Positions 21,076 to 33,289 of a stretch of 61,782 nucleotides of DNA are shown piece by piece. The stretch is from Negaprion brevirostris. Taxonomy: Eukaryota. How positions within the stretch are numbered: position 1 is the first letter of the stretch; each line of letters opens with the position of its first letter. The translations under genes and the position numbers were made by a program. Below the pieces are notes generated by a model. It worked only from the letters and a program-made list of their open reading frames with translations. It did not search any database and was not told the origin of the DNA. The stretch spans positions 25,688,998-25,750,779 of the forward strand of contig JARDVH010000163.1 of the NCBI GenBank assembly GCA_030324005.1. Reading direction: 5' to 3'.

Positions 21076-22181
21076 CTGTGAAGGTGGGTTTAGGTTGGTT
21101 CATGGGGTTTAATTCTGAAAGCCAGATTCCTAAACCAAACTCATTTCCAACAGGCTCTCAATCTTTAACTGAAGCAGGGAGGTGGGCAAACAATTAATCC
21201 TCTTCAAGGAGGCTGTTGGCATTTTAAATATGATAATGAAGCTGAGTCTTGCAGTCATTCAGTTTTACAAATTTAACTGTTGTCGGCAGGTTTCTTAATC
21301 CAGCTATATCCACACTCCTGCATGACTTTTGAACAGAGATGCACCCTCCCCCACCCCATCCCCTCTATTGGGACTCCAATTCCCACCATTGGGAGGCCTC
21401 CTAATTCTCCAGCCAACCCCCCTTACTTTCCCATTCACCACCCAGACCTCACTGCACAAGACCTATGACCTCCAAACCCAGATGCCCTGCTGCTGCATGG
21501 AACTACCTGACTCTCACTGACCTGTATCCTATCTGACTGGAAGCCAAATCTGTTAAATCAGGCTGGCTTCAGGACAGGAAACTGACTTGATGACATTGTG
21601 CACTCTTCCATAAAGAGTACTCCATGTGTGGAGGCATTTCAACTCTTGGGCCCGCATGTCTTTCCAAAAACCTCTCTCCAGGCAGGTCAGATAAGTTAAA
21701 GCCCAGGCTATTATGTTTGTTTTAAATTTTGAATTGACAGTCATTTAACTATGGAAATTAGGGTTTGACATCTTAGTTTGAGCAGTAACATTGTAAAAAA
21801 AGAAATAGTTTATCCTGGAAATCTGAAATAAAATGGAAATTGCTGCTGCCCCCTGAAGGAGAAAATTTTGATCAACATTTTGAATGCACCTCATGAATAA
21901 AAGCTGGCAAAGGCACTCAGGTAAAATGCCAACCTTTGCCTTCAGGAGTTGATGCCATTAGACTTATTGGGTGGGATTTTATAGTCTCACTTGTGGTTTC
22001 CATTGTTGGATCCTCGTTCATTCTGATTCTGTGGAAGGCGAGGTGCTAGAGTTCTGGCGATTGTGCATTCACAGCATATTTGGTTTTTATCTCAGTTCCA
22101 AGATCCTTTGAATAGACTTCAATCAATATTATGATCTTAGGCTGGATGGCATTTGGTTAGACCCAATCATGTGTTGCTGCT

Positions 22182-22683
22182 TGTTGGATCCATTCATTCG
22201 TTTGAACAGTCAAGGGGACAGCACTTAGTACGAGCTTAAAAATAGTTTTCTTTTGTTGAACAGAACTTAAAAGATTAACATGACAGAAGAAAAAGTGAAT
22301 TTGGAGACTGGCTTCTCAGCCAGATTCAGTACTGAACTTGAACACACTGAACTGGATCTTGAAACAACTGAACACATATTCTGAAATCAAAACATATTCC
22401 AACACTTATTTCACCACTGGAAGTGTTTTCAACAGGCTGTCTCTGTCTTAGTAAAACAATCCTTGCAGCTGCTGTTATACTGTTGTTTGCCTGCATTGTG
22501 TACGCTTCAGGAATGCAGTCAATTTCTAGCTAACCTCTAGCCTTCACATTCTACATGTAAGTTAGTCAAGTTAGTAGTCACTTGTTAAGCTTAGCAGAGT
22601 TAGTTGCATAGGCAGAAATATCTTAAAATGAAGTATTTGCATAGACTGAAGCAAACAGAGCTAAGCATGCACAGGACCTCTTA
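22182..22683 (-). repeat. ERV 3' LTR
   Basis: Direct repeat of 31217-31688. Starts TGTTGG on + and ends ...ggacctctta (terminal CA mutated to TA). Confidence 0.9.
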
Positions 22684-22698
22684 ATTCCTTCCTTTGAT
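22684..22698 (-). promoter_or_regulatory. Polypurine tract (PPT)
   Basis: Minus-strand AAAGGAAGGAAT directly precedes the 3' LTR and follows the env stop. Confidence 0.8.
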
Positions 22699-22718
22699 TC
22701 AAATATATGAAACCTCTT

Positions 22719-24870
22719 TCAGGTGAGAAATGGTTTGTTTCCCTTTCCCTTTGCAGTCATAATCATCATCACTAAGGAATTACCATTCTGTATTGTCATT
22801 AAAAGGTTACACATGCATTTAAGAAGTAAGAGTATGCAGTATATCATTACAGTAATAACAAAGAATAGCACCAATCCTTGCATCATGGAGCTCCCAATTG
22901 AGCCTAGCCATCCAGTTGCCAGCTCCACAAAGTGGAGGATGGGTACTGTTTAAGTTTCTCAGCTTCCTTTTTAATGTATCTAGCCAAATTAGTAATATTT
23001 TTCAAACTGTCGGGAATATATGTGCAGCACTCAGTCCGAGTTAAGGCACATGTGCCTCCTTGTTCAGCCAGGATGTAGTCAAGTGCCATCCTATTCTGCA
23101 TGGTTATGATATGAATGGCTACCATTTCAACTAAGGTTTCAACAGTGCCATTGGCCACCTTTTCCAGGATGGATGCCATGATGATGGACTCTCTTGCCAG
23201 TTTTGCAGTTCCATACCACTGGAGTAGCATAGTGAAGAATCACTCCATTTCTGTAATTGCTCGCCTTATTCTTTGGCAATGAGGTGGCGTGGGCAGGGAG
23301 GTTGTGTGGTGAATATAAAGTATGATATACCCCAGATAACAAGATCCTGTCCAGGATTAGGATAGCCAGGATAGGCCTTGTAGCTGCAAATAAAGTCGGT
23401 ACCATTACAGGCTATAAATTTCCTGAGTTCCCTGGTGAACATCAAATCATTCTCAGATCGCCAAGGGCCCCCACTGGTTTTGTTGAGGATGGATGACAAG
23501 TTCCACATTTCCACTAACTGGAGACCAGGGCTGACCATGGACAGATTAGGGATATCTCTGCAATTGCTATACCTCATCACTTGTTCTCTGATTTGGTTCC
23601 TAACTAGATAGACCAACTCTTGTGGCCTCCCTATCCCAGAGGTATTAGTGAGGACTACGGATGGTGTTTCACAGGTTGTCTTGTAATTGGGCTGATACCA
23701 TCTGACAAATGAGTTCAAGAAGTAGCCTGCCCACTCCCAGTCTTTTCTCCCTGCTCTTCTGCCTGAGGTCGCTACAGTTTACCTATTGGTCCTGTTACTT
23801 CTAATTAGCCATTCCGCTGTTTCAGACTCATTAAAGTGAACAGGTCTCAATGGAATACTGCCCTTGGAATGTAAAGGTATATGTACGCATACCCAATAAC
23901 TGGAGACATCAGCTTTTTTGGCATAGGCCATGTACACAAAGGTTTACCGGTAATTCTTTGGTCACTTGTTTTGGTTCCTCAGGTGCAAGGGACTGGCAGG
24001 CTGGGAATTGTTAAATGCTTGACATACAAAAGGACAACATAATACTGATTTGATTTGATTTATTATTATCACATGTTTTAACATACAGTGAAATGTATTC
24101 TTTCTTGCACATTATACAGACAAGACATACCATTCATAGAGAAGGAAATGAGAGAGAAAGAGCAAAATGTAATGTAACAGCTAGGGTGTAGAGAAAAATC
24201 AACTTAATGCAAGGTAAGTCCACTCAAAAGTCCGACAGTAGCAGGGAAGAAGCTGTTCTACAGTCGGTTGGTACGTGACCTCAGACTTTTGTATATTTTT
24301 CCCGAAGGAAGAAGGTGGAAGAGAGAATGTCCAGGTTGCGTGGGATCCTTAATTATGCTGGCTGCTTTGCCGAGACAGTGGGAAGTGTAGACAGAATCAG
24401 TGGATGGGAGATTGGTTTGCGTGATGAATTGGGCTACATTCACAACCTTTTGTAATTCCTTGCGATCTTGGGCAGAACAGGAGCCCAAGTTGTGATACAA
24501 CCAGAAAGAATGCTTTCTATGGTGCATCTGTAAATGTTGGCGAGAGTCACAGCTGACATGCCAAATTTCCTTAGTCCTCTGAGAAAGTAGAGGCATTAGT
24601 GGGCTTTCTTAACTATAGTGTCGGCATGGGGGGAACCGGACAGGTGTTTGTGATCTGGACACCTAAAAACCTGAAGCTCTCGACCCTTTCTATTTTGTCT
24701 CCATTGATGTAGACAGGGGCATGTTCTCTTTTATGCTTCCTGAAGTTGATGACAATCTCCTTCGTTTTGTTGACATTGAGAGAGAGATTATTGTTGCCAC
24801 ACTAATTTACCAGATCCTCTATCTCATTCCTGTACACTGTTTAAACTAATAAAATGTGGCTATATGTGCA
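22719..24870 (-). pseudogene. env: Retroviral env, gamma-type (frameshifted; 5' part interrupted by Rex1)
   Basis: SU motif YWVC (degenerate CWVC) near 23890; furin site RIRR at 23261-23272; ISD plus CX6CC MQNRMALDYILAEQGGTCALTRTECCTYIPD; hydrophobic membrane anchor GLVLFFVITVMIYCILLLL. Start codon uncertain. Confidence 0.9.
24046..24835 (-). mobile_element. Rex1/Babar non-LTR retrotransposon 3' fragment inserted in env
   Basis: DRKELQKVVNVAQFIT...IIKDPTQPGHSLFHLLPSGKIYKSLRSRTNRL and a short (TGATT)n tail at 24046-24060. Confidence 0.85.
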
Positions 24871-25261
24871 AGAAGTATAAAAGATAAATGTCCTTAGGTG
24901 CTCTGTTGATCTGCGATGAGTGCATCCAGGTGTTCTTTCCCTGGACCTTGAGGCTGCTTGGGGTAATAGTAGCACTTATGAACGTCTTTCCCACTTGGTT
25001 CCCAGAGGTTCTTTGTGTATCTTCCTCACGTACGCTGAGGCTCCTAAGACAATATCATGCTCTCCTTGTTGCTGACACCTAATGGGAAACAGAACAGATA
25101 ACATTTGTCTGGTTTTTACAATACTCTAACCAAGTGTCGCTCATCAAGTGGAAGTCAGCTTTTCAGAAATCAGTGGTTCTAGGCAACAACATTGGTCTTC
25201 CTGTTATTACTTTAAATGGACTCCAATCCATGGTCATCTTTGGGGTTGCTCTAATACTACA

Positions 25262-25545
25262 CAGGGTTTCCTCCGGATGCTCCAGCTTCCTCCCACAGTC
25301 CAAAGCTTTGCAGGTTAGGTCGTTTGGCCATGCTAAAAAATTGCCTCTTAGTGTCCTGAGATGCGTAGGTTAGAGNNNNNNNNNNNNNNNNNNNNNNNNN
25401 NNNNNNNNNNNNNNNNNNNNNNNNNNNNNNNNNNNNNNNNNNNNNNNNNNNNNNNNNNNNNNNNNNNNNNNNNNNGTCGTGGCTCAGTTCCACACTCCCG
25501 CCCTCTCCCCATAACCCTTAATCCCCTCGCCTGTCAAAAACCTAT
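25262..25545 (+). mobile_element. Partial HE1-like SINE plus CR1-tail fragment inserted in integrase (contains an N-gap)
   Basis: GGGTTTCCTCCGG...CCCACAGTCCAAAG SINE core. The integrase sequence stops and resumes on either side. Confidence 0.7.
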
Positions 25546-27596
25546 CTACCCAGTGATGTTTAACAGTCTACAGACCTCCTTGTAGATGGCATCTGTGAAA
25601 CGGGTTCCGTGATCGGCGTCAGTACGGTTCAGGACTTCCCATCTGGGAATGTAGTCCTTATACATAACCTTGGCTTTATGTTTGCCAATGGATTGCCTTG
25701 CTGGGGCAGCCTCCAGCCATCTGGAGAATCTGTCCACAATGACAAAAACATGGAGGGAAAGATATATAGTTGACCTATAAATCCTGGAATGGTCCTGCTG
25801 GTGCAGGGACATTACCGTGATGGGTCCTGGATTGTTTTTCTACCAGACCACACAACAGTCTGTTACCAGCTGGGTGCATTTCTTGAATCCTTGCTCCTAC
25901 CAGCTTTTCTGAAACCGTGCCGTTTTCTGCTGCAGGGACAGGTGTCCCCATGAGTGCATCTGCAGTGCCAGAAAGGGCATCAGTGCCTGGAGTATGACTG
26001 GTTTCTTAATGTCTCTTTGCCTCCATATATCATCTTTCCATAGCTTTATTCCTGCCTCGATCCATGTCCATTTTTTCTTCCCATGTGCATTCATTTTCAC
26101 CTTCTTCAAATCTTGTGTCAGACTAAGCGCTCCCAGTCTGCACATCTGAGTTGATTCTTCCAACCAGGGTAGATTGTGAGGCAGCCTCTTTGGCTGCCTG
26201 GTCATTTCCCTTTGCCATCTCAGTATTTTCCTTCATATGGACTTTGCACTTCAAAATAGACATCCTCTGGTGCAACTATATGGCTTCTAGTAAGTCTCGG
26301 ACATCTCTCCCATTATGGATGGGTCTACCTGCAGCCATGAAGAAACCCCTTCTTTGCCATAGCTGACCAAAGTCGCGGGGGACTCCGAAAGCGTACCATG
26401 AGTCCATATAAGTATTAGCTATTTATCCTTCTGCTAACCGGCAGGCTTCTGCCAAGGTTTGCAGTTTGGCCTGTTGACCTGACATTCCTGGGGGTAGACA
26501 GCCCTTTTCCATAACTTCATGTATGGTTGTAACTGCTCATCCTGCTTTTCTGACACCATTGTCAACATAGGAGGAGTCATCGGTGAAAAGAATGAGATCT
26601 GGGTTGGGTGGGGGGTCTTCCACTGCTAAGGCAACTTCTTCTGTTTCTTTTAGCAGTTCCACACATACTCTTCCTCCTCAGGAAAAGGGAGCATAGTTGC
26701 AGGGTTAACTGGACTAACCCGGACGATTTAGAAATTGTGGGCCTTCAGAACCACTATCCAACTGGTCCATTGGGCTATCGTGATCTGCGATACTCTGTTC
26801 ATTGACAACCAAACATGGACTGTGTGGGGATACTTGACAGTTAGCTTCTGATCCAGAACACCAGGTGTGAGGGCGATTATGGCTCCAAAGATGGCATCCA
26901 TGGCCCTCGGGCAACTTCCTCATCCGAGGGCTACTGTATCCAATTTTGCCGCATAGTAGCTAATAGGCCTTTGTTGGTACCATGTTCCTGTATCAGTATA
27001 GCTGTCATAGATTGTTCCTTTTCATGGACAAACAAGGTGAAGGGCTTCCATTGTTGGGGATTCCTAGTGCTGGTGTAGGGCACAAAGCTGCTGGTGTAGG
27101 GCACAAAGCGTCTTTAACATCCCTGAAAGCCTCTGTTCTTTCATGAAGGGAATAGCCTCCTTTAATGTCCATTTTCCCTTTAAAAGGTCATTCAGTGGTT
27201 GGGTAAACTGTGTGTAAAGTCCACCCAACTTCTGTTAAAGTTGCACAGACCCAAAAAGGATCTCAGTTCTTTGATCATAGTAGGCTGTTTAGTGTGGCCC
27301 TATCCTGGGTAAGTTCTCTCTTTCTCTCTGAAATTTTCTGTCCCAGTTACTCAACCCTTTTTTGGATTCTCTGTGCTTTGTTGATGCTAGCCTTCAGGTG
27401 AAGATGATCCAGCAGGGTGTGTTAGTCCTACGTGTGCTGTTCTTCCACGTTGGAGGCTAACAGGCTATCATCCACACATTGGATAACCTTGGAGGACAAT
27501 GTGGGTAGTTCTCGCAAATGGCTTTGTAAGGCCATATGAAGTACCATAGGGCTATTGTGAAACCCCTGAGGTAGCTGGGTCCAGGTATATTGGACC

Positions 27597-27665
27597 GGCT
27601 AGCATGGGAGCGGAGCAGGCTCGAAGGGCAAAATTGCCTCCTCCTGCTCCTATCTTCTATGTTGT
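27597..27665 (+). mobile_element. Very short 5'-truncated CR1 3'-tail insertion in RT
   Basis: ggagcaggctcgaagggc...cctgctcctatcttctatgtt, flanked by tattggacc / tactggacc (9-bp TSD, 1 mismatch). Confidence 0.75.
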
Positions 27666-27690
27666 TACTGGACCATAAAGGCAAACAATG

Positions 27691-27930
27691 AACAAAGAAG
27701 ATTACAGCACAGGAACAGGCCCATCGGTCCTTGAAGCCTACAGCGACCATGCAGCCTGACTGAACTAAAATCCCCTACCCTCCCGAGGACCATATGCCTC
27801 TATTCCTATCCTATTCATAGATTTGTCAAGATGCCCCTTATAAGTCATTATTTTATTTGCTTCCATATCTTCCCCGCTTGCGAGTTCCAGGCACCCACCA
27901 CCCTCTGTGTAAAAAACTTGCCTCGTACAT
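27691..27930 (-). mobile_element. CR1 3' end insertion in RT
   Basis: Closely similar to 3130-3370 and 54532-54735. It splits the RT motif QP(W)FAF. Confidence 0.85.
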
Positions 27931-29102
27931 CTATGGTTGGACCTCAGGTGATAGTGGCACCAAAATCCAGTGGCCATGTTGGTGACTGAGAAGTACTTAT
28001 GTTCCAGGGTTAAGGTGTTAAAAATGGTGGAGGCGCCTGTGATAAGATGGGCCTTTTGATCAATCCACTGATTGGCCTTTCTGTAGTCTATGGTCAAATG
28101 CCAAGTTCCATTTGATTTATTTACTGATCATACAGGGCTTTTAGATGAGCTGTGTGCCTTGACTAGCATGCCTTGTTTCTCCAGTTGTTGAATAACTGGC
28201 AGGGTGCCGGGCTGATGGGGTACTGCCTGGTACAGGGTTGTGGTGTTCCAGTGAATGAGGCTGGTTCCATCTGGAGTAAGCCGCAATTATTCTTACCTTG
28301 GGCCTATATTGGGAGGTACATGCAGTCTTCCTTTTTCAAAGGATTGATAGACCACGTCACCTTACCCTTTTTAAAACCCAAAAAGGAGTTTAGCTGAACC
28401 AGGATGTCCATTCCAAGTAAGGCTTGTTGTACCAGTTCCATCCAAACTCGGATAGTCACTTCGTGAGGACCAAGGTGAATTCTAGTGGGTTTAGTCTGCT
28501 GGAGTTTTATATTACCTCCACTTGTCACTTGTGCTATTATCAGTTGGTTGTTCATGCAGAAATATCTTTTGTATTTCAGTGTTAGACAGTTTAACTCTAC
28601 TCCGCTGTCCAGGAGACAGTCTATGTCTTGATTGCCCACCCATATCATTATGTATATCACATCTCCCCTCTGTTCCACTAGCACCAGAAGCGGGGCTGTG
28701 AAGACAAGGGCGGGCTCTGCTAATTTTTTGCTGCATCTAGCAACACACCTTGTTGCTCTGTGGTGAGCTGCTTAAACTTCTTCAAACATTCTTCATCTTC
28801 AAACTGATGCTGAGACTGTTGGTATCCCTGACATCCGTTATCTTACTGCTTGGCTTGGCATGTTTTTGCCCTGTGACCTTTTCCGCCTGGTAGGAGAGCC
28901 TGGTAGAATCCTTGGGTTTCCCTCTGTTTGCAGGATGCAGATTTTGGCTCCTGTATCCTGATCTATTTGATTACACCGCTCCAATACTGTTGCGAATGTT
29001 GTTCCGACTTTGTCCCAGTTTGGCGAATGTAACTTTACTATCTTTGCCAATTCTGGCTTTAGGCCAGTGACAAATGCAGCTTTCACGGGTCCAAAAGTAT
29101 TG

Positions 29103-30026
29103 ATATGGAGACGCCGGCACTGGACTGGGGTAAGCACAGTAAAAAGTCTCACAACACCAGGTTAAAGTCTAACAGGTTTATTTGGTAGCACAAGCTTTCG
29201 AAGTGTCACTGCTTCAGGTGAGTTATGAGTTGTGTTCACAAACAGGACACATATAGACACAAACTCAATTTACGAGATAATGGTTGGAATGCGAGTCTTT
29301 GCAGGTAATCAAGTCTTAAAGGTACAGACAATGCAAGTGGAGAGGGGGTTAAGCACAGGTTAAAGAGGTGCGCATTGTCTCCAGTCAGGACAGTTAGTGA
29401 GATTTTGCAAGCCCAGGCAAGTTGTGGGGGTTCCAAGTAGTGTGACATGAACCCAAGAGGGCATCTCCATGTGTGCAGAACTTGGCTATCAGTTTCTGCT
29501 CAGCGATTCTGCATTGTCGTGTGTCATGAAGGCCGCCTTGGAGAATGCTTACCGGAAGATCAGAGGCCGAATGCCTGTGACTGCTGAAGTGTTCCCCAAT
29601 AGGAGGAGAACACTCCTGCCTGGTGATTGCCGAGCAGTGTTCATTCATCCGTTTTCGTAGCGTCTGCATGGTCTCGCCAATGTACCATGCCTCAGGACAT
29701 CCTTTCCTGCAGTGTATCAAGTAGACAATGTTGGCCAGTTCTGTGATTTATCCTAAGTTGCACTAACTGTCCTGGCTGGAGACAATACACCTGTGCTTTA
29801 ACCTGTTCTTAACCCTCTCTCTACTCAGATTGTCTGTACTTTTAAGACTTGATTACCTGTAAAGACTTGCATTCCAACCATTATCTTGTAAATTGTGATT
29901 GTGTCTATATGTGCCCTGTTTGTGAACACAACTCATCACTCACCTGGAGAAGGAATGACACTCCGAAAGCTTGTGCTACCAAATAAATATGTTGGACTTT
30001 ATCCTGCTGTTGTGAGACTTCTTATT
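29103..30026 (-). mobile_element. Penelope-like element (GIY-YIG fragment with inverted pseudo-LTRs) inserted in gag
   Basis: ORF 29394..29720 reads CRKGCPEAWYIGETMQTLRKRMNEH (GIY-YIG). 29138-29400 is the reverse complement of about 29761-30026. TSD of 14 bp, gtccaaaagtattg / gtccaaaggtattg. Confidence 0.9.
29941..29975 (+). ncRNA. Degenerate minimal hammerhead ribozyme in Penelope pLTR
   Basis: cac-CTGGAGA-aGGAatgacacTCC-GAAAGCTT-gtg: CUGANGA core with one mismatch, GAAA box, and palindromic stem III AAGCTT. Confidence 0.6.
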
Positions 30027-31193
30027 GTCCAAAGGTATTGCCATCCATTTCTTCGGCACCGGCATTGTCTATTCCTGAATATTCCGTCCACACAGCCCTA
30101 AACCGTTCATCATACTCCCATACCTCTTCTGTACCTCTCTGCTGATAGGCTGCTATTTTTCCCCAATCTGTTTTGGCGGCACTGAATACATGTAGCCACC
30201 TGTAGCTTTCACTAATGGTTTTACCACCTGCCTTGGCAGCCTCAGACTTGATCTTGACCCGTTTTCTGTTTAATGGTGCGAGTCTTATAACAGAAGTCCC
30301 TTCTGCAATGTTGCTGCACTCGCTAGAGTTGCTAGAGGACCCTGAGTCTGCTTCTAAACCAGCCTCACGCCCTTGCCTGTCTCGCTGTTCTTTTTCTATT
30401 TGTCGCATACTAGGGTAACCTGACCAGGACCCAATACATACTCCTTTAAATGATGTTTGTCCTTTATAAGATGGTTCTTTATAATCTCAGTTCTTAGCTT
30501 TAAAAGTTGTATTTTCAGTCTTAAGTCCCTTATTTTCCACTTCTAACTTTCTAACTTTGTATACTGCTTTTAGTTGGTTCTTTGCATTAGTCAGATCGTG
30601 GTCATGTTGGGAGTTCTTTAACATTTCATTCCTTTGTTGGATCTGGCCCAGGACAGCTAAGGACAAACTTATGAATTCCTTATCCTTCATATGGCTCGTT
30701 TTTCCCAGATCCTCTTTATCTCATTCAAGGATCACTGTCCCTTGGAGATGCCGTACTTCTGTTCAATCTCAGTACAGGTTTTGGGCAAGTCAAATTGATG
30801 TTCGATATGTTCTCTTAGTTGTTGCAGAACTTTATCCTCAAAAACATTGGATGGCGCCTGGCCGCCTCTTACTGTGATCGGTAACTGATTCTGTAGAGGA
30901 GTTTTGGTCTGACTTTTCGTTTCTGTCATGGTGATGGTCGTTATGGGGTTAATGAGTCTTGAGCTGTAGGCAATCCTAGCTGGGTCGGAGTCTTATCACA
31001 GACATCGCCAAAACGAGATATCTCTAAGTGGGGCCTTGCGATATAGGACAGAACATCAGTTTGTCAAGGATTGCGTAAAGGGGAGGACGAGATTTAGATA
31101 ATCGACCAAGGACTTTTAATTAAGAGGAGTTCTTACCTCCAGGGTCACGACATAAGTTCGATGTCCTGAATTCAGTCCAATAGGCCTTCAGCA

Positions 31194-31211
31194 TTCCTGT
31201 TCGTGATGCCA
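31194..31211 (-). promoter_or_regulatory. Primer-binding site, tRNA-Ser(CGA)
   Basis: Minus-strand TGGCATCACGAACAGGAA, 5 nt from the 5' LTR. The + strand TTCCTGTTCGTGATGCCA matches the 3' end of a vertebrate tRNA-Ser(CGA), ATCCTGTTCGTGACGCCA (recalled, not searched), at 16/18. Confidence 0.8.
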
Positions 31212-31216
31212 GAAGC

Positions 31217-31688
31217 TGTTGGGCCCACTCATTCGTTTAAACACTTGGTATGAGTTTAAAAATGGTTTTCTTTTATTGAACAGAACTTGAAAGATTAACA
31301 TGACAGAAGAAAACGTGAACTTGGAGACTGGCTTCTCAGTAGGACTCTACTGAACTTGAACACACTGAACTGGAGCATGAAACACACACTCTGAAACTAA
31401 AACATATTTCAATCCTTATCTCGCCACTGGAAGTGTTTTCCGCAGGCTGTCTCTGTCTTAGAAAAAGAATCCTCGCAGCTGCTGTTATGCTGTTATTTGC
31501 CTGCATTGTGTACTTTTCAGGAATGCAGTCAATTTCTAGCTAACCGTTAACCTTCAGATTCTACATGTGGTCAAGTTAGCAGTCAATTGGTAAGCTTAGC
31601 AGAGTTAGTTGCATAGGCTGAAATACCTTAAAATGAAGTCCTTGCGTAGACTGAAGCAAACAGGGCTAAGCACACATAGGATCTCTCA
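31217..31688 (-). repeat. ERV 5' LTR
   Basis: TG...CA termini and direct repeat of 22182-22683. Minus-strand AATAAA at 31272-31277. Confidence 0.9.
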
Positions 31689-33289
31689 TTGCTGCTCATT
31701 GAGAAGTCAGTTATTCACATTGATTAGCATTGTTGATTCTCCAGTCAGGAATTAGGGTAAAGGATAATTGGCCATGAGCTTGGATGAAAGGAAAGATGTT
31801 TGAGGTTTTTTTTAGATATAAATAGTACTAATTTTTGGATTTTATCTTTGTTCAAAGTATTTCATGATAAGCAACTTATAATCATTTTTGTGCATTGAAT
31901 GTTTAAGCATTGCTGGATTTTGACTATCAGTGTTTCACACACTAGGAATTACATATACTCCAGAGATGATGAAATAAATATTTAGGATCTATTCTCTTAC
32001 CCATATTAAAGTTCCATTGAAAATAATATTACTTTGTCAAAAAATGTGTTTTAGACTTGTCAGCCTTAAACTATACCTAAGAATCACAGTTGTTGCACCT
32101 ACTTTCAGCCAAAATTATTTATCTACACTGGCTCAATGTATACTACAGTCTGGACAGGGAATTCAATGACAAAAAGACTTAGACTGATTATATTCAGGCC
32201 TAGATCTTTGCAACAATGGGAGTCTCTCTTTTATCCTGAAAATGGCAGGAGGAAATAATGAGGGTCAGAGACAGGGAAGAGGGAACCGGTAGTTTGGCAG
32301 GTGGTTGATGGGCACACAGAGGCAGACACGAAGGAGGAGATCAGGCAGGTCGATGAGGTTGGGATATTCAGGAAGGCAGGGAACATACATGTTCACTTGG
32401 ACATTGTAGAAGGAAAAGGGTTTAGGCTGGAGGGTAATGGAAGGGAGGTCAGAGGTGATACCGGGAATTGGTTAATAACAGGGGAATGGGGACAGGAATG
32501 GAGGGGGTTGCTGACCACCATTTTCTGAAATCAAAAGTAAACAGAGCCTTGGATTGGATGCGGACACAGGTGCTGCACGGAGATATAGGTCAGTTGAGAT
32601 TAACAACTGAAAGAAAATTCCAGCAGGCAGCATTGGAAATGCTTGGACAGTGAGATGCATGTGATGGAAGAAGGCTCCACGTGCCTGGGAGAGTTCCTCA
32701 AAGAAGCTCAGAAAGGTTCCCCTACATACATATCTTTTCCTCCAGATTCACTCGTAGTCTGACTGCTACTGGAGAGTGATGCACGGTGAGCATTTGCAAA
32801 GTCTGTAAATGATGCAGAAAGGTCACAACATCACCCATGATTTGGTGATATTTAGTTACTTTTCACTTTATAAATGAATGCTGCTGCCATCACATCCCAG
32901 GCTGGTTTGATGACTGGTGGATCTCCTTTGGTCAGCGGGGTTAAAAGAAAATGCAGCAGCCTTCTACTATGCTGGCAGGTGCTCCAAATATGCGCCACAA
33001 ACTGTGGAGACTGCCATCATCTTTGCTTTCGGGGCCATATGTCACCTGGGGCAGTCCTGGCTTGTAGACATGAAGGACGCTGTGCTCAAGTGCCCTTTAC
33101 ATATGGTACTCAGATGGAGCAAATCCAAGCTCTCCTGCCAGAGATCCAGTGTGTTTTCCATGATTGATTTTTAATGAGGCTGACAATGCTAGGAAGTGAG
33201 CAATATGATGGAGAAGCCTGAATTGTGGCCAGCATGTAAAATGTTTTTTACAACTGTGACCGTACAATCGTGGGACAATTTTGCCATGA

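What the first reader, a model, noticed from the sequence alone, without database searches (positions are those of the whole stretch)
22182..31688. Complete elasmobranch ERV with a mosaic class III-like / class I-like architecture
Seen: after removing five nested insertions, the whole provirus can be read. The N-terminal RT has SPV*SVNKSNGTWHLTIDYRKAN and YFSVTNMATGFW. These resemble ERV-L/S (WRMTVDYR.LN) and foamy (DLANGFW) motifs more than gamma/epsilon (YR.VQDLR.VN, DLKDAFF). Distal RT (QYTW..LPQGF.NSP, Q(Y)VDD, KAS..KAQ...V.(Y)LG), tether (RPISYYAAKLD.VA.G), RNase H, integrase (IVDRFSRW.EA...IPRW) and Env (CWVC-like SU, ISD, CX6CC) all look gamma/epsilon-like. The PBS is tRNA-Ser, as in the class III HERV-S. 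The predicted Gag start lacks an N-terminal Gly. Inference: either an ancient recombinant with a crossover inside RT, or a deep, poorly sampled lineage of cartilaginous-fish retroviruses. I cannot tell from sequence alone whether the family is already catalogued.
Basis: partly seen in the sequence, partly recalled or inferred. Interest (0 to 1): 0.8.

Follow-up and report, generated by a model that had tools for sequence, protein, structure and literature searches.

The report
Shark retrovirus fossil with frameshift junction
This is a long-dead retrovirus fixed in what is likely a shark genome; it is not a hybrid of two virus classes but one member of a little-studied fish lineage that likely sits next to the gamma/epsilon retroviruses, and unlike its bony-fish relative it likely made its enzymes by a ribosomal frameshift rather than by reading through a stop codon.

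Summary
The provirus is real: minus strand, LTRs 31217-31688 and 22182-22683 (K2P 0.129), tRNA-Ser(CGA) primer site, all genes broken, four insertion intervals. The proposed crossover inside RT is not supported. All six pol domains have the same nearest relatives, intact teleost and gar Pol proteins, and both RT halves fall in that lineage (100/97, 100/99). The 'class III' RT motifs are ancestral states also found in gypsy-like and SnRV-like RTs. The lineage was already sampled by Xu et al. 2018 (gar le_oc_ERV2, carp cy_ca_ERV4, listed in their Huo block). My trees place it sister to class I (100/94 to 100/98), but lack foamy and class II rows. It mixes a 5-bp target duplication and unmyristoylated Gag with a CCHC knuckle, class I-like tether and RNase H, and a gamma-type TM. 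One teleost relative has in-frame UGA-CUA at the same place. The frameshift is inferred, and no stimulatory RNA structure was found.

The parts
31217..31688 (-). 5' LTR, 472 nt, TG...CA, AATAAA near its 3' end
31194..31211 (-). Primer-binding site for tRNA-Ser(CGA), 5 nt after the LTR
   Evidence: 16 of 18 bases match the own-genome tRNA in L048
28720..30929 (-). gag, broken; starts MTETK (no Gly2); coiled region; degraded CCHC knuckle; about 270 nt shorter than other copies near 30200
29103..30026 (.). Insertion in gag, Penelope-like (GIY-YIG piece, inverted arms)
28720..28729 (-). gag-pro junction: A AAA AAT heptamer (28729-28723) followed at once by the gag TAG; pro in the -1 frame
28307..28719 (-). 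Protease region (LLDSG)
27933..28306 (-). RT, N-terminal half, broken
27593..27932 (.). Insertion in RT (repeat also found elsewhere in the window; looks composite)
26674..27592 (-). RT C-terminal half, thumb and tether, broken; 21-nt tandem duplication at 27068-27109
26180..26665 (-). RNase H, class I-like, broken
24896..26118 (-). Integrase with C-terminal MLVIN_C-like piece, broken
25266..25543 (.). Insertion in integrase (SINE-like, partly N)
24048..24838 (.). Insertion at the start of env (repeat shared with window 3-145)
22722..24900 (-). env, broken: SU with YWVC, furin-like KIRRR, gamma-type TM with NGT, QNRMALD ISD and CX6CC; start not fixed
22684..22696 (-). Polypurine tract
22182..22683 (-). 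3' LTR, 502 nt
22174..22181 (-). Target-site copy; AGCAGCAA stands on both sides (31689-31696), read as the family's 5-bp duplication with one mismatch in an AGC repeat, or as an irregular 8-bp one

Best explanation
The element is a broken, fixed provirus of a non-recombinant fish retrovirus lineage that is likely the sister group of the class I (gamma/epsilon) retroviruses, and its shark branch likely expressed Pro-Pol by a -1 ribosomal frameshift at A AAA AAY just before the gag stop. [quoted passage not shown] Inferred: the N-terminal RT motifs (DYR.xN, D..NGFW) are retained ancestral states, not imported sequence; the virus primed reverse transcription with tRNA-Ser, entered by a gamma-type covalent SU-TM envelope, spread to tens of proviral and many solo-LTR sites, and then decayed neutrally while SINE/LINE/Penelope pieces inserted.
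For: Same nearest relatives in 6 of 6 pol domains; 17 of 17 windows by mean identity, 15 of 17 by best single row. Window RT-N and RT-C both inside the lineage, 100/97 and 100/99. Lineage monophyletic in RT, tether, RNase H and IN trees. Sister to class I: 100/94 in RT under LG+C20, 100/98 in RT+tether+IN; a single clade of all non-class I, non-loki rows including this lineage is rejected (p-AU 0.002 RT, 8e-9 concatenated); lineage + ERV-L/S-like rejected on the concatenation (p-AU 0.0145). DYR and D..GYW/GFW motifs occur in gypsy-like, SnRV-like and ERV-L-like rows. Junction: of 16 loci found by flanking DNA, 13 cover it; pro is -1 in 10 of 12 with both anchors, A AAA AA[ACT] in 8 of 13, TAG right behind in 10 of 13 (window included); two divergent subfamilies show the same heptamer and phase. 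Control: 3 of 3 class I-like ERVs of this genome seen with a CCHC knuckle run in frame through one stop. TSD: mean match 0.76 at 5 bp against 0.23 at 4 and 0.20 at 6 in 10 of 18 LTR loci that could be scored. Contigs bridge flank and 3' LTR in organisms B, C and D at 2-3% difference.
Against: No named SnRV, SSSV, ZFERV, WDSV, foamy or class II sequence was in any tree; group labels rest on motifs, Pfam domains and source names. Xu et al. 2018 list the same lineage among the Huo tips (read from tip order only). AU tests on RT alone or its halves do not reject lineage + ERV-L/S-like (p 0.18 whole RT, 0.24 RT-N, 0.44 RT-C; window + ERV-L/S-like in RT-N p 0.067). In RNase H and IN the lineage sits in an unresolved group with class I, and tether support for the sister pair is 91/60. 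No stimulatory RNA structure: z from -1.2 to +0.4 in six copies folded singly. The one teleost member with DNA has an in-frame TGA CTA junction, so the frameshift is not lineage-wide. This copy's own flanks match over 8 bp, not 5.
Confidence: 0.7

Rival explanations
1. An ordinary member of clade Huo (SnRV-related, class III in the wide sense) with a gamma-type envelope, as already described for XtERV-S and for anamniote ERVs; the closeness to class I in my trees is a sampling or model effect.
For: Gar and carp members lie in the Huo block of Xu et al. S2 Fig; 5-bp TSD, no Gly2 and Ser PBS match XtERV-S; RT alone does not reject grouping with ERV-L/S-like rows; class II and foamy rows are missing from my trees.
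Against: Huo as one clade including this lineage is rejected; YVDD not YIDD, no dUTPase, CCHC present, tether and RNase H closer to class I; a relative scores 401 bits to MLV RT against 201 to foamy RT.
Confidence: 0.2
2. A recombinant with a crossover inside RT: class III or foamy-like N-terminal RT joined to a class I remainder, in this copy or in the ancestor of the lineage.
For: Window RT-N hits foamy RT best in the PDB, weakly (E 0.0045); one 30-residue window is nearer ERV-L/S-like (0.39) than class I (0.29) rows; AU on RT-N does not formally reject an ERV-L/S link.
Against: That window is still nearest the fish lineage (0.51); RT-N places the lineage with class I at least as well as RT-C does; the motifs are shared with gypsy-like outgroups.
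Confidence: 0.05
3. The -1 phase of pro is not a programmed frameshift: the family descends from a defective master copy mobilised in trans, or made Pol from a spliced RNA or an internal start.
For: No RNA stimulator found; all copies are degraded; a teleost relative uses an in-frame stop.
Against: A canonical X XXY YYZ heptamer in the right phase directly before the gag stop, kept in two divergent subfamilies as well; the -1 frame is open and homologous to the teleost LE.P sequence from the heptamer on.
Confidence: 0.2

Closest known systems
le_oc_ERV2 (spotted gar) and cy_ca_ERV4 (carp), Xu et al. 2018, PMC6001957 (first two parts of the text, passages, S2 Fig text and cut S2 Data entries seen)
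   Same: Same RT motifs and same clade: P0198 (gar, W5NLS4) matches the le_oc_ERV2 entry and groups with the window
   Different: Xu et al. list them in the Huo block and the text I saw does not describe them; the cartilaginous-fish tips in their figure lie in other blocks; my trees put the lineage beside class I; the gag-pro junction is not discussed in what I read
XtERV-S, Yedavalli et al. 2021, PMC8278194 (parts 1-3 of 8 read)
   Same: Ser PBS, 5-bp TSD, no myristoylation signal, DYR-type RT motif, gamma-type TM with ISD, CX6CC and a glycosylation site in the heptad
   Different: XtERV-S is ERV-L-related: YIDD, dUTPase, no CCHC, in-frame TGA, tRNA-Ser(AGA/TGA); here (Y)VDD, no dUTPase, one CCHC in family copies, -1 junction, Ser(CGA)
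Class I ERVs (gamma/epsilon; MLV, WDSV, SSSV, ZFERV)
   Same: Tether, RNase H, IN C-terminal GPY-like motif, single CCHC, gamma-type TM; nearest group in my trees
   Different: Class I has the DLR / DLKDAFF RT motifs, a 4-bp TSD (Chong et al. 2014, PMC4299795, passages) and stop-codon readthrough (PMC13517186, passages); a relative is only 33-36% identical to the best viral structures
SnRV-like, Ovex1-like and CmiERV lineage I elements (Han 2015, PMC4422223, part 1 of 2; Carre-Eusebe 2009, PMC2717909, passages)
   Same: Same N-terminal and distal RT motifs; unmyristoylated Gag with one zinc finger in SnRV; Chong et al. note GPY/F and zinc-finger motifs in these unclassified groups
   Different: They branch further from class I in my trees and have a Ty3-like tether; SnRV and Ovex1 use in-frame readthrough
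Class II retroviruses (alpha, beta, delta, lenti)
   Same: Works like them at one point: -1 frameshift between gag and pro (PMC13517186); that A AAA AAC is the MMTV/HTLV gag-pro site is recalled
   Different: Pol is only 17-24% identical to class II structures; envelope, TSD and tether are not class II

Membership tests
Endogenous retrovirus (Retroviridae) | [quoted passage not shown] | tested here: met
Endogenous retrovirus (Retroviridae) | Tether plus second RNase H; env TM | tested here: met
Fish lineage of le_oc_ERV2 / cy_ca_ERV4 | RT groups with these sequences in both halves | tested here: met
   100/97 and 100/99
Fish lineage of le_oc_ERV2 / cy_ca_ERV4 | Same gag-pol expression signal as teleost members | tested here: inconclusive
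   -1 phase in shark copies; in-frame TGA in the one teleost contig; no DNA for gar, carp, zebrafish
Class I (gamma/epsilon, ERV1) | RT inside the class I clade | tested here: not met
   Sister to it, class I closed at 100/99 without it
Class I (gamma/epsilon, ERV1) | 4-bp TSD | tested here: not met
   5 bp in solo LTRs
Class I (gamma/epsilon, ERV1) | In-frame gag stop readthrough | tested here: not met
   -1 phase in 10 of 12 copies
Class I (gamma/epsilon, ERV1) | 1-2 CCHC knuckles and GPY/F-like IN motif | tested here: met
   CCHC in L012, L049, L052; MLVIN_C in relatives, weak in the window
Class III in the narrow sense (ERV-L/ERV-S, XtERV-S) | RT groups with ERV-L/S | tested here: not met
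   Not in any free tree; rejected on the concatenation, not rejected on RT alone
Class III in the narrow sense (ERV-L/ERV-S, XtERV-S) | YIDD, no zinc knuckle, dUTPase in many | tested here: not met
Class III in the narrow sense (ERV-L/ERV-S, XtERV-S) | 5-bp TSD | tested here: met
Clade Huo (Xu et al. 2018) | RT inside one clade with SnRV and ERV-L/S | tested here: inconclusive
   Listed there by Xu et al.; rejected with my panel, which lacks SnRV itself, foamy and class II rows
Foamy viruses (clade Tu) | No CCHC, foamy Env, RT grouping with foamy viruses | tested here: not met
   CCHC and gamma-type TM present; relative scores half as well to foamy as to MLV RT; no foamy row for a tree
Lokiretrovirus | Env related to paramyxovirus F; RT sister to all retroviruses | tested here: not met
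   TM is TLV_coat/syncytin-like; Wang and Han PMC7947760, parts 1-2 of 4 read
Repbase/Dfam family | Near-identical catalogued consensus | not testable with these tools
   No such library on hand

The most novel reading that the evidence does not exclude
An undescribed sister lineage of all class I retroviruses, spread over sharks, gar and teleosts, that keeps ancestral traits (RT motifs, 5-bp TSD, unmyristoylated Gag) and has switched between -1 frameshifting (shark branch, A AAA AAC UAG) and UGA-CUA readthrough (a teleost branch) at the very same gag-pro position: a natural record of how one recoding mechanism turns into the other, outside class II.
Probability: 0.45. Interest if true: 0.72.

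Novelty: new variant of a known kind. Interest (0 to 1): 0.5.

Why it matters
Gag-pol recoding is treated as a class marker: readthrough for gamma, epsilon and the known fish viruses, frameshift for class II. A fish lineage next to class I that shows both signals at one homologous site would break that rule and make the direction and mechanism of the switch testable with short natural fragments. It would also mean that part of clade Huo is a grade leading to class I. As a locus it is a neutral fossil, useful as an orthologous marker across at least four related organisms.

Tried and rejected
Crossover inside RT: rejected. Lokiretrovirus or foamy identity: rejected on envelope and scores. Viral-contig scans found no relative. 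No foamy protease match in the own genome, and the control rang nowhere, so no foamy row was obtained; P0254 and P0226 are not clearly foamy. ESM Atlas gave only generic RT clusters and did not hold the SU piece, so SU relatives are untested. ARAGORN found no tRNA in the window or in L048, which is partly N; Rfam did. The junction pattern search (90 matches against 16 in the control) selects on the motif and was not counted; the unbiased set was used. Gag of the zebrafish relative aligns to the window only weakly (best E 5e-4), so no Gag tree was made; no PR or TM tree was made either. No RNA holder listed. Paper searches showed no paper describing this lineage in elasmobranchs or a frameshift junction in it; only listings were seen for most hits, subscription papers are missing, and the supplements of the bioRxiv anamniote Env paper (10.1101/2021.11.23.469661; passages and section 8 read), which covers six cartilaginous fishes, could not be seen and may already hold this family. 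PMC10435555 and PMC5210030 were searched for passages and PMC4977317 read in parts 1-2 of 4, without a bearing result. Dating is loose: K2P 0.129 gives about 290 My at Han's assumed 2.2e-10 and about 65 My at 1e-9; the shark rate is unknown.
Full report
Observation. The stretch 22182-31688 holds a provirus on the minus strand. The LTRs are 31217-31688 and 22182-22683, begin TG (TA in the 3' copy) and end CA, and differ at 55 of 472 aligned sites, K2P 0.129. A primer site follows the 5' LTR after 5 nt and matches the genome's own tRNA with anticodon CGA at 16 of 18 bases; 5 of 14 other leader-bearing loci show a match of 13 to 16 bases at the same place, the rest none above chance. A purine tract precedes the 3' LTR. 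gag, pro, pol and env are recognisable in order, all broken by stops and frame changes. Against other copies four intervals are insertions, 24048-24838, 25266-25543, 27593-27932 and 29103-30026, and about 270 nt of gag are missing near 30200.

Family. The genome holds related pol copies at 65-82% DNA identity (44 matches from 40 of 457 candidates scored, some of them matches to a repeat at the query's edge) and many LTR copies at 75-86% (41 matches from 40 of 1161 candidates). Those fetched are degraded. Copy L002 has the same N-terminal RT motifs as the window, so the motif mix is a family trait. Solo LTRs give a 5-bp target duplication: mean match 0.76 at 5 bp, 0.23 at 4 and 0.20 at 6, in 10 of 18 loci; 8 could not be scored. 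The window's own flanks agree over 8 bp inside an AGC repeat, or 4 of 5 at 5 bp. Single contigs bridge the flank and the 3' LTR in coded organisms B, C and D at 2-3% difference, so the insertion is older than their split.

No crossover. A search with a natural open piece of L002 found intact Pol proteins. They are collinear with the window from protease to integrase and carry both the 'class III' and the 'class I' motifs in one frame. Named members come from Astyanax and piranhas, carp, zebrafish, anchovy, alewife, cod and gar. In 6 of 6 domains the window's best-scoring relative among 32 to 56 panel proteins belongs to this lineage. In 17 of 17 windows of 30 residues its mean identity is highest to this lineage; by best single row, 15 of 17. 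Both RT halves of the window fall inside the lineage, 100/97 and 100/99. The same motifs occur in gypsy-like, loki-like and SnRV-like rows, so they are best read as ancestral. The distal motifs are not class I markers either: foamy RT and the SnRV-like ca_mi_ERV1 have them.

Where the lineage sits. The supplement of Xu et al. 2018 (PMC6001957) already holds two members, cy_ca_ERV4 and le_oc_ERV2, and its S2 Fig lists them among the tips between clades Shui and Tu, that is in Huo; I saw tip order only, not branches. My trees, rooted on gypsy-like rows, put the lineage sister to class I: 100/97, 100/94 under LG+C20 with ERV-L/S-like rows added, 100/98 on RT+tether+IN, with eel and other shark lineages branching just outside. 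Tether agrees weakly (91/60); RNase H and IN leave it in an unresolved group with class I. One clade of all Huo-like rows with this lineage is rejected (p-AU 0.002 and 8e-9). Lineage plus ERV-L/S-like is rejected on the concatenation (0.0145) but not on RT or its halves (0.18, 0.24, 0.44). The panel has no named SnRV, SSSV, ZFERV, WDSV, foamy or class II sequence; labels rest on motifs, on Pfam (dUTPase and YIDD for ERV-L-like rows) and on identity of motifs to MLV RT. A fold search with a relative gave at best 33-36% identity to any viral protein, so no known exogenous virus is close; reading Q2VF30 as SSSV and Q88285 as SnRV is recalled.

Other traits. Gag starts MTETK without Gly2, as do the copies shown. 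A single CCHC knuckle is present in L012, L049 and L052 and degraded in the window. TM has QNRMALD, CX6CC and an NGT site and is nearest syncytin-1 among solved structures. A class III-like pol with a gamma-type TM and a Ser primer is known from XtERV-S (PMC8278194), and Pol-Env incongruence is common in anamniotes (10.1101/2021.11.23.469661), so the envelope adds little novelty. XtERV-S differs in YIDD, dUTPase, lack of CCHC and an in-frame stop.

The gag-pro junction. In the window gag ends AAKN* and the protease frame begins KKLAEP in the -1 phase; the bases read A AAA AAT TAG. In an unbiased set of 16 loci found by flanking DNA, 13 cover the junction; pro is in the -1 phase in 10 of 12 with both anchors, the heptamer is A AAA AA[ACT] in 8 of 13 and TAG follows at once in 10 of 13 (window included). 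Two divergent subfamilies show the same heptamer and phase. Three class I-like ERVs of the same genome run in frame through one stop. PMC13517186 states that gamma and epsilon retroviruses, SSSV, ZFERV and SnRV have readthrough stops and class II viruses frameshift, and lists UGA CUA as a readthrough context in alphaviruses. The only teleost member for which I had DNA, a metagenome contig 79% identical to the cod-cluster protein, has GAT TGA CTA GAA in frame at the homologous place. So the shark branch most likely used -1 frameshifting and at least one teleost branch readthrough. Against this: single-copy folds downstream of the heptamer are no more stable than shuffles (z -1.2 to +0.4, six copies), the teleost case rests on one contig, and nothing was assayed.

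Verdict. A real, dead, old ERV. Not a class III/class I recombinant. A shark member of a fish lineage that was sampled in 2018 but, in what I could read, not described; probably the nearest relative of class I, with a likely -1 frameshift junction that its class I neighbours lack. New variant of a known kind, interest 0.5.

Noticed in passing
L082:2915-2923 and L083 (metagenome contigs): A deeper-branching retroviral element has gag and pol in frame across TAG CAA TTA, the same context that PMC13517186 lists for tobacco mosaic virus readthrough; both frames are long and open.
   Followed up: no
P0002 cluster: Pol of this lineage is at least 90% identical between Astyanax and three piranha-family genera; recent cross-species spread or a domesticated gene.
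   Followed up: no
P0009 cluster: One carp-like Pol cluster of the lineage has 3937 member sequences, which suggests a recent, very large expansion or many assemblies of one host.
   Followed up: no
L013, L014 (G000:C2000, C14776): The genome holds a second DYR-type ERV lineage, grouping with Mustelus and Heterodontus proteins just outside the lineage described here.
   Followed up: partly
L015, L017, L018: Class I-like ERV families in the same genome with in-frame gag stops; used only as a control.
   Followed up: partly
window:29103-30026: Penelope-like insertion with a GIY-YIG piece and inverted arms about 90% complementary; similar inverted pairs occur in L005, L051 and L052.
   Followed up: no
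window:31212-31216: The primer site lies 5 nt after the LTR end here and 4-5 nt in other copies, a longer spacer than I recall for most retroviruses.
   Followed up: partly
window:27068-27109: Perfect 21-nt tandem duplication inside the RT connection region.
   Followed up: no
P0181 (zebrafish XP_073791153): The annotated Gag-Pol fusion reads EKKL at the junction, like the shark -1 frame KKL; the gene model may hide a frameshift site. No DNA was available.
   Followed up: no
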